Below are positions 29,624-47,580 of a stretch of 64,000 bases of DNA, piece after piece; the first letter of the stretch is position 1, and each line of letters starts with the position of its first letter. The DNA comes from Eledone cirrhosa (taxonomy: Eukaryota). Below the pieces are notes generated by a model. That model saw only the letters and a list, made by a program, of their open reading frames with translations, did no database searches and was not told the DNA's origin. Location of the stretch: assembly GCA_964016885.1 (NCBI GenBank), contig OZ024749.1:31124001-31188000 (forward strand), given 5' to 3'. The position numbers were made by a program, and so were the translations under genes.

Positions 29624-29960
29624 GAAGTTCTATTTAAATTGTTGGGATACAACAAGCAAATATTTTTATAACTGATATAAAGCACTCGACAAATAATTGG
29701 AGTAAAAATACGATATTAACAAATGGAGACTATATTTATAAAACCATATTCATTGTTGGAAGGTCCCGTTTAGTCACTATCCGGGAGCTTCCAACAGTAA
29801 TGGTCGCATTCTTTAAGGGTATGGCAATATTTATTTCTAAAACTGCTCTATATTATATTTTATCTGATGAAAGCACACCAAAATTTCACTTGGTGTCCTT
29901 GAAATATGTATAATGAAATAAATATGGTTTTATAAATATAGTTTCCATTTGTTAATATCC
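29624..29960. mobile_element. Fold-back PLE pLTR insert, family L copy 1; hammerhead 29857-29919 (+)
   Basis: ATTTTAT-CTGATGA-AAGCACACCA...TGGTGTCCTT-GAAA-TATGTA-TA-ATGAAAT. Short inverted arm plus tail on the left. (TA)n flanks. Confidence 0.8.
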
Positions 29961-29983
29961 TATATATATATATATATATATAT

Positions 29984-30345
29984 AAAGAAAAAGAGATGAA
30001 ATCGAAAATGCAACTGAAGTCTTATTTTTTTAAAAAATATATATATTTATTTGGTTCCTTTACCGGTTTCGCAGTTCTTCTGCTTTGCAAAAGGTGAGTT
30101 GAGATGGAGGGTCTGTGGTTTTTCTCACATCAGATGTGAGAAAAACCACAGACCCTCCATCTCAACTCACCTTTTGAAAAGCAGAAGAACTGCGAAACCG
30201 GTAAAGGAACCAAATAAATATATATATTTTTTTTAAAAATAAGACTTCAGTTGCATTTTCGATTTCATCTCTTTTTCTTTATACTTCCACTAGTGTAGGA
30301 CACCTCGGTTATTTTTCATTTTGTAAAAAAAACCTCACTTTCTAA
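29984..30345. mobile_element. ~300-bp near-perfect palindrome (centre 30132) plus one-sided tail; degenerate hammerheads
   Basis: 29984-30131 mirrors 30133-30280. CCTT-TTGAAAA-GCAG AAGAA CTGC-GAAA-CCGG-TA-AAGG...AATAAA. Confidence 0.8.
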
Positions 30346-31937
30346 TATATATGTATATATATAGATATATATATCTATATACGAGTATAAGTGCCTATAT
30401 AGGTGGGCGGGTGCAATGTATGTGTCTTATAAGTGTGTCTAATTTGGAGAGATCTATTAGAAAATTCAGGAATATATAATTAATAGCCACATCAAGAACA
30501 TTTTGTTATTTTATGAAATATAGTTTTAACTATAACGATCAAAGATGTTAGCTGTTAATAAACATTATTTTAAAAGTGTTAATACTGCATATCAATTCAT
30601 ATAGCCACATTATTAATATATATCTATAACGATGTGTGTGCCTGTGTGTCTGTGTGTCTGTGCCTGGCTGTATATATGTATGCATGTAATCTATATTTAC
30701 AACTCTCTCTCTCTCTCTCTCTATATATATATATATATATATATATATATATATATATATATATATATATATATTTATGTATATATGTATGTATATATGT
30801 ATATATATATATTATATATATATATGCATATACATGTATATGTATATATATATATATATATATGTATATATATATATGTGTATATATATATATATATATA
30901 TGTATGTATGTATATATGTATATATATATATATATATATATATACATGTATATATATATACATATACCTGTATATATATATATATATATATTTATATATA
31001 TATATATATATATATATTTTGTATATGTATGTTTGTATGTATGTATATTTAAGAGAGTATGTATGTGTGATTGTGTGTGTATTTATCAACAAAAATTAAT
31101 TAAGTACGTAATATAGAGTTGCAACATAGGTGGAAGCACTAAAACTTTGGTGTGGAATAATGTTAAAGATCAAGTGGTTTCCATAGATTATATTGATTAA
31201 CAGGTTTCTATCAATATTTCTGCCATAGAATTAATGAAAAGTGGAGTTCAGTGGAAATGGGAACTTTTAAAATCTGATTTTCTAACTGGGGTTAATGGAC
31301 TTAATATATAGTTATTATAGAATGTACTAAACTGATTAAATCAATCCAGTATTTACCTTGTAATTTGTACTAGACATGAAGAGGAAATGGTCTAGATGTG
31401 TTGTTTCTAGTGTGTGCATTTACTAAACCTACCTATGAAAATCGATGCTGCTTCTTTGATCTGGCTAGTTTCCTTCTATATTCCAACCGGCACATCAGAT
31501 TTTAGCTTGTCTCTCATCTTCTCCTCAGCCATGTTGCGTCCAAATCAACAGATACTTCACGATGACTAAAATGTCAGCTCTCAGATAACATGATAATTAT
31601 AGCATTTTTCCGTTGATGTAGTGTAGCTGTTTCTTTTTTAGGGGTTTAATGAAGGTGATGGTTAATACTTACATCATCTAAAGCTACAGTAAAGGAGATA
31701 TACTCAGAGTAGTGATCTTGGGAAAAAGGGTTCAAGAAAATGGACTCCGTTAAAATAATTCATGTTCATAAGATGAATTTAAACCGTTCAAAGGATTAAG
31801 AGTACGACCATGCCCAGGGACGATCCATTGAGCTTCCTCAATATCATTAGAAATGAATGTGTTGAACCGAAGAGTTCATAACGTGACATAACTTAGAGAT
31901 TCAAAGTCAAATATTTAACCATCACCCTAACCATAAG

Positions 31938-32205
31938 TGGAGGTATGTTGCCTAGTGGTAACTGTGTTGAATTTACGATCATAATGTCATGGGTTCGTTT
32001 CCCTGCTGGGTTGAATTTTGTGTTCTTGGACACAACACATCATTTCACGTTGCTCCAGTATACTCTGCGAAAAATGAGTACCAACAATAGAGTTTAACCC
32101 TGCGATGGACTGGCGTCCTGTCCACGAGGAATCTTGTACTCTCAGTCGCTTCATGCCATGAAATCGGAATAAGCAGACGTCAAATCGCTTAAGGCAGACT
32201 CCAAC
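31938..32205 (+). mobile_element. tRNA-derived SINE with V-domain-like core
   Basis: TTGCCTAGTGG and GGGTTCGTTTCCC boxes, plus CCCTGCGATGGACTGGCGTCCTGTCCA. Confidence 0.65.
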
Positions 32206-32871
32206 AACGTTTGCTCCCTCCACGGTTTATAGATTTGACAATATTTACCAACACAGCAATACCTATAGACATTGACAGTTACTTTCTACAGTGTAGAAAG
32301 TAACACATACACGTGCGCGCGCAAACTAATACACACACGTACACACAAACAAACTTGTGTGTGTGTGTGTGTGTGTGTGTGTGTGTGTGCGTGTGTGTGT
32401 GTGTGTGTGTGTGTGTGTGTGTGTGTGTGTGTGTGTGTGTGTGTGTGTGTGTGTGTGTGTGTTGTATGTGTGTGTGTGTGTGTGTGTATGTGTGTGTGTG
32501 TGTGTGTGTGTGTGTGTGTGTGTGTGTGTGTGTGTGTGTGAGCCTTGTGTTTGGTACAGAAAAAAAAATTGTCTCCTGCTTTTTATTGCCGGGTCAAAGG
32601 CCACTGCTCTTTTCAACAACGTCAAATAATAACGCCATATATATATATATATATATATATATATGTGTGTGTATGTGTGTGTGTGTGTGTGTGTGTGTGT
32701 GTGTGTGTGTGTGTGTGTGTGTGTGTGTGTGTGTGTGTTTGGTATACGTCTATCTATCTATCTATCTATCTATCTCTCCAACAGGGGGCTCAAACATGCG
32801 GCCCGCGAACTACTTTCCTATGGCCCGTGGTAGAACCAATATTTCAGATTCGATTATAACTGGTGTAAATA

Positions 32872-33070
32872 AGGCGGTGAGCTGGTGGAATCGTTAGCAT
32901 ATCTGGCGAAATGCTTAGCTGTGCTTCTCCCGTTTTTACGTTCTGAGTTCAAATTCCGCCAATCTCAACTTTGCCTTTCATCCTTTTGGGGTCGATAAAT
33001 TAAGTACCAGTTGTGAACTTGGATCGATGTAAGCCCTATATTTTATGCCTGATGCCTTTAGTAGAAATGA
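32872..33070 (+). mobile_element. tRNA-derived SINE, older subfamily of the major family
   Basis: GGCGGTGAGCTGG head, GAGTTCAAATTCC and shared core. Confidence 0.8.
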
Positions 33071-45267: not shown

Positions 45268-45674
45268 TATATATCTATATATATATATATATAGCTAGAT
45301 AAAGCTTTCTTCTAAATCACAAATATGTAACATATAATTTTTAAATAATGTCTCTCATGTGGATTGCACTAGATTGCCTAATGTCTATATTTTACGTCGT
45401 TGCACAGATAACTGCGGTATTTTGGTATTTTAAACATTTTAAGCCGCTTCAGTTGTATTAATATTTTATTTGACTATTTTGATTTAATAAGTCATTTGTA
45501 AACACACATTTTGTTGTATATAATTATGTAAATCTTTTCTTCTTCTCTTTTATCGATTAGTCTTATTTATTCCAAAGATGTCAGGGGAAAGTAAATTTGA
45601 ATGATTTTATTCTATCTGTTTCAAAGGGAGTATAAAAGAGCAGCATCTTCCAACAACATCAACACAATGACATT

Positions 45675-45945
45675 CTCGGTAGAAGATCGGTTAAATAGCT
45701 TCGTGAATCTTAGTTACGACTGATATCGTGTTGAGTTCAAATCATACCGAGGTAAACATTTCCTTTCTGGGGTCGGTGAATGTAAAGTATTAGTTGAGTA
45801 CCAGTCTCGATAAAAAGTAATATCATCATTATATAAACAAATCCCGCCGAGGTTGACTTTGCCTTTCATCCTTACGGGGTCGATAAAATAAAGTACCAGT
45901 AATGCACTGGCTATTTGCTGACATTGTGCCAAAAGTAGAAACAAT
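45675..45945 (+). mobile_element. Old SINE remnant followed by a young 5'-truncated SINE
   Basis: Diverged core 45722-45805. Consensus-like 3' half from about 45838. Confidence 0.75.
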
Positions 45946-46230
45946 TATATAAAAGAGTATCGTCATTAGGTTTATTCTGCTGTGACGCGCGTTTCGCAAT
46001 TGGTCAGCTGAAGGTTCGATCTGTATCGATCGGGCCCAACTCAGTCGGGCCTGAACGATAGAGATCGAACATTCGCGAAACACTCGTAAACACTGCATAA
46101 ACAAAATTACGATACTTTGAGACTGCGCACAACTTATAGTTAATATATATATTTATATATAAGATATATATATATATATATATATATATATATATATATA
46201 TATATATATATATATATATATATATATATA

Positions 46231-46594
46231 TAAAATATGTAGTTTAGAAAGCCACAACAATGCAGATGGGAAATCTCGAGGTAGGAAGTGAGTGAGAAAT
46301 AGGAGAAAAGTGAAAATTGAGAGAAACGAAAATGAAAACAAAACAAAGGTAGAAGGGTTACCGTAGTGGAGATTTAATCCCAATATTTAGGGCTTACGCC
46401 CATCAACGGGGGAAAGTTCCAAAAGGGGGGGGGGGGGAACAGGTTAAGCCGGAGAAAGTTGTATTGTCGTTAAAACTTTTCTCCTATTTCTCACTCACTT
46501 CCTACCTCGAGATTTCCCATCTGCATTGTTGTGGCTTTCTAAACTACATATCTTACACATTTCACAATGCTTCAAGCAAACTTTAACACCCTCA
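46231..46594. mobile_element. Fold-back insert in (TA)n: ~77-bp inverted arms plus one-sided tail
   Basis: 46235-46311 is the reverse complement of 46475-46551. Spacer holds a very degenerate hammerhead-like GGGC GTAA GCCC on the minus strand. Confidence 0.7.
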
Positions 46595-47150
46595 TATATA
46601 TATATATATTAACCAATATTGTGTGTGTGAATACGTATATGTATATATTTATATATATATGAAACTAATAATATCTGTAACATTTACTCCTGCGTTTGTT
46701 TATTGTTGTATTTTTCTGTTATTCCGAACTATATATATATGGAGATCGATAAATAATTAAATATATAGATATATGAAACTAAATTCACAAAATATATATG
46801 TGAGTCTGTAAAAAATTAAAGAGTTTTTTACTATATTTTACTTCTGCCCTACCTATGATATTTTAGAATTGTCTCCCTTATATATCCCGGTAATATATCG
46901 GAGTCACATACCAAGATATTATGGCATATGATGTAAAACATATGTTTGTGGTTAATGGAAAAAGAATGTCAACGTTCGCCCATACGTATATATGTATACA
47001 TGTGTGTGTTTGTGTGTTCTCTTTAGTTGCGTTTAAATTTAAGTTTAAATATATATATATATATATATATATATATATATATATATATATATATATATAT
47101 ATATATTATATATATATATATTAAATATATATATATATATATATATATGT

Positions 47151-47580
47151 AAGAGTTCTATTTAAATTGTTGGGATTCAACGAGCAAATATTTTTATAAC
47201 TGATATAAAGCACTGAACAAATATTTGGAGTAAAAATACGATATCAACAAATGGAAACTATATTTATAAAACCATATTTATTTCATTATACATATTTCAA
47301 GGACACCAAGTTAAATTATGGTGTGCTTTCATCAGATAAAATATAATATAGATCAGTTTTATAAATAAATATTGACATACCCTTAAAGAATGCAACCATC
47401 CGGGAGCTTCAAACAGTAATGGTTGCATTCTTTAACGGTATGTCAATATTTATTTATAAAACTGATCTATATTATATTTTATCTGATGAAAGCACACCAT
47501 AATTTAACTTGGTGTCCTTGAAATATGTATAATGAAATAAATATGGTTTTATAAATATAGTTTCCATTTGTTAATATCGT
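47151..47580. mobile_element. Fold-back PLE pLTR insert, family L copy 3; hammerheads 47280-47342 (-) and 47476-47538 (+)
   Basis: About 160-bp near-perfect arms 47238-47399 and 47419-47580. Tail 47151-47237. Confidence 0.85.

What the first reader, a model, noticed from the sequence alone, without database searches (positions are those of the whole stretch)
29624..47580. Family L: fixed outer ends but variable fold-back point across four copies
Seen: copies at 29624, 42805 and 47151 share the tail end (AGTTCTATTTAAATTG) and the tail-less end (GTTAATATC[G/C] then TA). The tail-less arm starts at nearly the same point (ATCCGGGAGC). The tailed arm is truncated at different places: before the ribozyme, just past it, and about 55 nt past it. 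The 44191 copy is a lone tail-less arm. Inference: two separate priming events on the two target strands, one at the RNA 3' end and one at a fixed site about 85 nt upstream, are joined in the middle.
Basis: partly seen in the sequence, partly recalled or inferred. Interest (0 to 1): 0.75.

Follow-up and report, generated by a model that had tools for sequence, protein, structure and literature searches.

The report
Penelope ends: two starts, one stop
These repeats are end fragments of a known kind of jumping gene (Penelope-like, Hydra group) sitting back-to-back in TA repeats; their two fixed outer ends likely mark two internal places where copying of one RNA starts, and their shared inner end likely marks where that RNA begins.

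Summary
The four copies are pseudo-LTR (pLTR) fragments of an autonomous Hydra-clade Penelope-like element (PLE) with thousands of copies in this genome. Fixed outer ends hold up: close back-to-back pairs were one tailed plus one tail-less arm in 17 of 17 and 12 of 12 cases (overlapping samples). One correction: the tail end is not the RNA 3' end. In coding copies the 91-nt tail runs on into the 5' UTR, so both ends are internal sites, each 6-7 nt before one copy of a duplicated hairpin. The shared inner point is a sharp 5' boundary, likely the transcription start, reached by both arm types; the tail-less arm goes further in 34 of 43 unequal pairs, which excludes simple fold-back for most. Coding copies overshoot this boundary, which suggests a circular or jumped template. 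Inverted copy plus one-sided tail, and two internal starts with both strands extended, are published (PMC8557442, PMC11167929). This scan already noted twin hairpins, one-tail pairing and 5' run-off on other DNA of this genome. Added here: the arm asymmetry and the contrast between short and coding copies. No RNA data.

The parts
29620..29774 (-). Copy 1 tailed arm: 91-nt tail (29620-29710), pLTR 3' part, internal gap removing the hammerhead, then the 5'-terminal 21 nt (29754-29774)
29683..29704 (-). Hairpin 1 in the tail of copy 1 (predicted 5-bp stem starting 6 nt after the tail-less site)
   Evidence: sequence; structure predicted on coding copies
29775..29960 (+). Copy 1 tail-less arm, from the common 5' point to the tail-less end, then (TA)n
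29850..29925 (+). Type I minimal hammerhead in copy 1 (predicted cut after 29912)
   Evidence: core read from the sequence; no Rfam hit
42804..42998 (-). Copy 2 tailed arm, ending at -106 inside hammerhead stem I; followed by a 2-nt GG filler (42999-43000)
43001..43185 (+). Copy 2 tail-less arm from the common 5' point; hammerhead at 43075-43150; ends in TG then (TA)n
44192..44344 (-). Copy 3: lone tail-less arm of an older subfamily (-152 to the tail-less end), TA repeats on both sides
47148..47399 (-). Copy 4 tailed arm: tail 47148-47238, hammerhead 47274-47349, 5' end at -160; 2-nt exact overlap (5 nt with one mismatch) with the other arm
47398..47579 (+). Copy 4 tail-less arm from the common 5' point; hammerhead at 47469-47544; then (TA)n

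Best explanation
The copies are short insertions of the pLTR and 5' UTR of an autonomous Hydra-clade Penelope-like retrotransposon, likely made when its enzyme cuts both strands of a (TA)n target and uses each 3' end to start reverse transcription at one of two internal RNA sites 91 nt apart. Shown: element identity, the two fixed ends, their internal position, one-of-each pairing, the sharp 5' boundary, and the longer reach of the tail-less arm. Inferred steps: (a) each start is placed by a copy of a duplicated hairpin 6-7 nt downstream and helped by 2-5 nt of pairing between target and RNA; (b) both copies are likely read from one RNA that begins at an internal promoter about 185 nt upstream of the first site; the leading (tail-less) copy often runs off the RNA 5' end, and the trailing (tailed) copy stops earlier; (c) the two cDNA 3' ends are joined by microhomology or filler; (d) full-length copies likely come from a different template form (ribozyme-cut circle, or a jump between pLTRs), since they overshoot the 5' boundary.
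For: Identity: pLTR-tail-ORF-3'UTR-pLTR copies with 732-745 aa ORFs; Hydra motifs (by eye); model pLDDT 90.8, best fold match telomerase RT, E 2e-9. Internal ends. Fixed ends: of the first 100 of 12,833 arms, 62 end in TA at the tail-less site and 38 run into the tail (by eye); 45 of 52 partner arms end there. Pairing: 17 of 17 pairs under 1 kb, 12 of 12 adjacent pairs, 4 of 5 full-length copies with an inverted arm. Asymmetry 34:9:9, p=1.7e-4; over -1..-140, tailed arms end in 22 of 47, tail-less in 7 of 52, p=0.0004. Twin motif: above all 500 shuffles in 14 of 19 copies; both stems predicted. Target pairing: TG follows the first site 6 times and CA never; CA follows the second 9 times and TG once, p=0.0009. 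Joints: 3 of 45 blunt vs 63 of 150 simulated. One source: 8 of 34 arm pairs share rare alleles. 5' boundary: 25 of 53 junction arms start at the same A and only 3 keep bases upstream of it. Coding copies: 1 stops there vs 20 beyond, against 15 vs 24 for tailed arms, p=0.005; their two pLTRs differ by 0-4 of 185 nt, less than from any other sampled copy in 8 of 8. A sister family has the same two-site layout with a 133-138 nt tail.
Against: All evidence is from DNA footprints. The twin hairpins show no compensatory change within the family (0 of 43 predicted pairs), and RNAalifold did not recover them in the sister family. Microhomology of 2 nt or more is not significant over all 45 joints (p=0.065). 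Compared by length synthesised, the arm asymmetry is weak (15 of 52 vs 7 of 52 end in the first 140 nt, p=0.09). In 18 of 52 pairs the tailed arm is as long or longer, so fold-back is not excluded for them. Exceptions to one-of-each exist: both tailed (L008, L047/L048), both tail-less (L121); sister family 11 of 14 mixed (by eye). Shared alleles could come from later gene conversion in palindromes. No excess of untemplated G at the 5' boundary. No pile-up of 5' ends at the hammerhead cut. In the Anolis element the start site was not homologous to the cut DNA and ribozyme cleavage was dispensable in vitro (PMC11167929).
Confidence: 0.72

Rival explanations
1. Same two-strand, two-site priming, but each arm is copied from its own RNA molecule (two RNAs in one particle); site choice is fixed by the geometry of the complex.
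For: Fits fixed ends, microhomology and 5' run-off equally well. Two transcripts of one source locus would also share alleles. Both-tailed and both-tail-less exceptions exist.
Against: Independent site choice predicts about half same-type pairs; 17 of 17 and 12 of 12 were mixed. No well-aligned arm pair differed at more than two common alleles (34 rows, one misaligned). It gives no reason for earlier stops of the tailed arm.
Confidence: 0.15
2. One priming at the tail site; the cDNA folds back on itself, is copied as DNA, and the copy is joined to the other target strand at the TA word of the tail-less site.
For: Explains one-of-each pairing and shared alleles; possible for the 18 of 52 pairs whose tailed arm is as long or longer.
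Against: A fold-back copy cannot hold sequence missing from the first strand, yet the tail-less arm reaches further in 34 of 52. Lone tail-less arms and full-length copies ending at the tail-less site are common.
Confidence: 0.07
3. Arms were symmetrical or longer at insertion; the variable centre and the -185 pile-up come from later deletion in unstable palindromes or from a strong RT pause rather than an RNA end.
For: Internal gaps inside arms occur (copy 1; L042).
Against: Deletion should hit both arms alike, not 34:9. Lone arms joined straight to (TA)n also start at the boundary (4 cases). A pause should also stop coding copies, but only 1 of 21 stops there.
Confidence: 0.06

Closest known systems
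Hydra clade of C-terminal EN+ Penelope-like elements (Craig et al. 2021, PMC8557442; passages, section 15 and supplement hits read), e.g. Hydra-1_Obim
   Same: Single RT plus C-terminal GIY-YIG ORF, RWK-like and DKT motifs, CxCX5C linker, CxxC and CxH, hammerhead in the pLTR, (TA)n target, inverted 5'-truncated copy and one-sided tail.
   Different: Tail is 91 nt (134 nt in the sister family), not 30-40 bp; 3' UTR of about 1.3-2 kb. The passages read give no account of twin hairpins, one-of-each pairing or a fixed 5' boundary. Its hammerhead differs in sequence from the Hydra-1_oBim entry, so it is a different family.
Poseidon element PAc of Anolis in vitro (Frangieh et al. 2024, PMC11167929; parts 1-2 of 4 read, supplementary figures unreadable as text)
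   Same: Both target strands cut and extended; two internal RT start sites whose spacing is the tail; needed RNA lies 3' of the start; AT-rich target.
   Different: PAc starts inside the ORF in an AC-rich stem-loop not homologous to the target. Here both sites are in the 5' UTR at TA words that can pair with (TA)n, each before a duplicated hairpin.
L1 twin priming (recalled, from no call)
   Same: Second target strand primes a second cDNA; inverted arms joined by microhomology.
   Different: Here both starts are fixed internal sites and the arms overlap over the same sequence; in L1 one start is the poly(A) end and the second is a variable upstream site giving non-overlapping arms.
Drosophila virilis Penelope promoter (PMC2377424, passages) and the circular-template proposal for PLE hammerheads (PMC4209133, passages; retrozymes PMC7229834, passages; bioRxiv 10.64898/2026.07.22.740005, part 1 of 5)
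   Same: Internal promoter with initiator and downstream element in the pLTR; more-than-unit copies proposed to come from ribozyme-made circles.
   Different: Family L is coding-element debris, not a tandem retrozyme. Promoter and circle are inferred here from DNA only.

Membership tests
Penelope-like elements (EN+) | Single ORF with telomerase-like RT | tested here: met
   742-aa ORF; AlphaFold model pLDDT 90.8, top Foldseek hit TERT. Pfam and PDB sequence searches gave no RT hit.
Penelope-like elements (EN+) | C-terminal GIY-YIG endonuclease | tested here: met
   Y622, Y635, G637, R646, H650 invariant in 109 aligned proteins; assignment by motif, no Pfam hit.
Penelope-like elements (EN+) | Partial tandem pLTRs, inverted 5'-truncated copy, tail at one end | tested here: met
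Hydra clade | RWK motif, DKT, CxCX5C linker, CxxC and CxH, no CCHH | tested here: met
   RWR, DKT, CxCX5C, CxxC and CRH read by eye in ORFs against the description and sequences
Hydra clade | Canonical hammerhead in the pLTR | tested here: met
   Core conserved, 98.7% of cells paired, two compensatory pairs in stem II; no Rfam hit; cleavage untested
Hydra clade | Insertion into (TA)n | tested here: met
Hydra clade | Placement in the RT phylogeny with reference Hydra families | not tested
Non-LTR retrozymes | Non-coding tandem repeats with a hammerhead in each unit | tested here: not met
   copies are single or inverted fragments of a coding element
L1-type twin priming | First priming at the RNA 3' end and non-overlapping arms (recalled) | tested here: not met
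   tail end is internal; arms overlap

The most novel reading that the evidence does not exclude
One PLE transcript is read by two RT active sites at once. Twin hairpins load them 91 nt apart on opposite target strands; the leader runs off the RNA start and the follower stalls behind it, so linear RNA makes only short two-armed debris. Complete elements arise only from a hammerhead-processed circular (or end-jumped) template. The ribozyme would then decide between junk and full-length transposition.
Probability: 0.35. Interest if true: 0.72.

Novelty: new member of a known kind. Interest (0 to 1): 0.42.

Why it matters
How PLEs build their tandem and inverted ends is stated as open in PMC8557442 and only partly answered in vitro in PMC11167929. 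This family gives thousands of footprints with four measurable breakpoints and names the RNA features to mutate: two hairpins, the 5' boundary and the ribozyme. The architecture itself is known, and the hairpin and run-off ideas were already noted by this scan, so the gain is incremental: the arm asymmetry and the contrast between short and coding copies.

Tried and rejected
Rfam: no hit at gathering score and no hammerhead at E up to 10. A coding-looking piece upstream of one copy turned out to be another TA-targeting repeat. No RNA holder listed; two runs of unknown kind, contigs only, showed loose TA ends at both sites but cannot show starts. Dimer prediction for residues 1-480 gave no verdict (score 0.00, alignment not used). 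Single-sequence fold was poor; the protein atlas was not available. Cap signature (extra G at the 5' boundary): not supported, A 9, G 8, T 8 among 25, most templated. Run-off at the hammerhead cut: 2 of 88 tailed arms within 3 nt, about 1.4 expected (one search list). Second-family test on window 29985-30352 failed: none of 5 loci ran into a 5' UTR. In the sister family my first guess of the tail end was wrong; the revised guess for the tail-less end, made from the motif, held. The first breakpoint run was discarded because its references held inverted arms. Rows dropped: 2 of 90 loci (arm mis-called) and 6 partner hits on microsatellite-like sequence; 2 such partners; 3 such hits, with L145 reassigned by eye. 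Segmental duplication rejected.
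Full report
1. Observation. The copies at 29624, 42805 and 47151 are head-to-head pairs, and 44191 is a lone arm, all in (TA)n. Positions below are counted from the last G of the tail-less end (site E1); the tail end is site E2, at +91. Window copies: tailed arms end at -45 (plus a separate 5'-terminal piece), -106 and -160; tail-less arms start at -186 to -184. The sense strand is set by the hammerhead and the ORF, so both arms point 3'-end-outward. The genome (3.0 Gb) holds 4587 exact tail 20-mers and 12,833 matches just before E1. 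Flanks are unrelated.

2. What it is. One tail match ran on into an ORF. A protein search found many such copies. In them the order is pLTR, tail, about 50 nt, start codon, 732-745 aa ORF, 3' UTR, pLTR. The protein shows the Hydra-clade marks listed in PMC8557442 (by eye). Pfam and PDB sequence searches missed it, but a model built with 108 homologues matched telomerase RT best. The pLTR holds a minimal type I hammerhead with compensatory changes in stem II (related sequences, so the shuffle control is lenient). Family L is therefore PLE debris.

3. The two outer ends. E2 is internal: 44 exact matches continue into the 5' UTR and 3386 end in TA. A search for tails not followed by T gave 30 loci that all still ended there. 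E1 and E2 are each a TA word followed 6-7 nt later by a copy of one roughly 50-nt motif, 89-92 nt apart. RNAalifold predicts the same 5-bp stem in both, with an A-U pair in one and G-C in the other, but there is no covariation within the family. The flank follows the local RNA word: TG after E1, CA after E2, as expected if the target pairs with the RNA (slippage would also do this). A sister Hydra family has both ends before similar words, 133-138 nt apart: of 30 loci, 15 end at the first site and 15 continue, and 13 of those end at or near the second; its hairpins were not recovered by consensus folding.

4. Pairing and centre. I examined 90 of the first 100 tail matches on one chromosome; 88 were usable and 52 had an adjacent inverted arm, 45 of which end at E1. 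Samples chosen without regard to the tail gave 17 of 17 and 12 of 12 mixed pairs (they overlap). Exceptions exist (L008, L047/L048, L121). The tail-less arm reaches further 5' in 34, the tailed arm in 9, and 9 are equal, which excludes fold-back from the tailed arm for most. Joints are rarely blunt (3 of 45 vs 63 of 150 simulated), 11 have filler, and overlap among non-filler joints is raised (p=0.002), though not for 2 nt or more over all joints (p=0.065). Arms of one insertion were near-identical in 33 of 34 rows (one misaligned) and share rare alleles in 8 of 34.

5. The common inner point. It is shared by both arm types (15 of 88 tailed, 19 of 52 tail-less) and has a sharp upstream edge (23 of 100 listed arms join there, by eye; 25 of 53 at the same base in a partly similarity-selected set). 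The four bases around it are invariant in 19 coding copies, and a purine-G-T-pyrimidine word 27-28 nt downstream is nearly so. This resembles an initiator plus downstream promoter element (consensus recalled, not scanned; Penelope has such a promoter, PMC2377424). I read it as the RNA 5' end. No cap signature was found, and no RNA run was listed.

6. Coding copies behave differently. Their upstream pLTR passes the boundary into 3' UTR sequence: 1 stops and 20 go beyond in the same subfamilies, against 15 and 24 for tailed arms. Five full-length copies end with a tail in TA, which needs more than one unit of template if the second hairpin is required. The two pLTRs of a copy are closer to each other than to any other sampled copy (8 of 8). 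This fits a ribozyme-made circle (proposed in PMC4209133) or a jump between pLTRs (raised by scan note e1-8664908); these data do not separate the two. 5' ends do not pile up at the ribozyme cut.

7. What is known. An inverted 5'-truncated copy with a one-sided tail and a (TA)n bias are described for PLEs (PMC8557442). Two internal starts defining the tail, with both strands extended, were shown in vitro (PMC11167929). My paper searches listed nothing on twin hairpins, one-of-each pairing or 5' run-off in PLEs; subscription papers are missing from the library, and the supplementary figures of PMC11167929 and the bioRxiv supplements could not be read and may bear on this. PMC13282606 (passages) only counts PLE families. 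After my analysis, look-ups showed that this scan had already noted twin hairpins, one-tail pairing and run-off at the RNA start on other DNA of this genome; these are unchecked AI notes and not independent support.

8. Verdict. A real feature, a new family of a known kind. Interest 0.42.

Noticed in passing
window 29985-30352: Another family with one tail-less and one tailed (about 68 nt) inverted arm in (TA)n; it has a hammerhead-like core in which the C3 and G8 positions read U and A.
   Followed up: partly
window 46233-46595: A third family with the same layout (tail about 40 nt); related copies seen in other loci.
   Followed up: partly
window 62911-63486 (-) and 55348-55557 (-): Endonuclease-region fragments of other PLE ORFs, 34-36% identical to the Family L protein.
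   Followed up: no
L299-L358: Sister Hydra family (2543 pattern matches) with two fixed ends and a 133-138 nt tail.
   Followed up: yes
L167:770-950: The tail end of the sister family is joined to Family L sequence at the TA word beside the hammerhead cut site: nested insertion or template switch.
   Followed up: no
L094:1501-2130, L097, L106: A roughly 630-bp TA-flanked repeat of another kind, often in tandem (about 2000 candidates); fused to a Family L pLTR in L054.
   Followed up: partly
L124:1547-2797: A whole two-armed insertion is present twice in inverted orientation with the same identities to the reference: a later local duplication.
   Followed up: no
window 40814-40995 and at least 15 other places: Abundant roughly 185-bp SINE-like repeat, also inserted in the 3' UTR of the coding copy in L121.
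   Followed up: no
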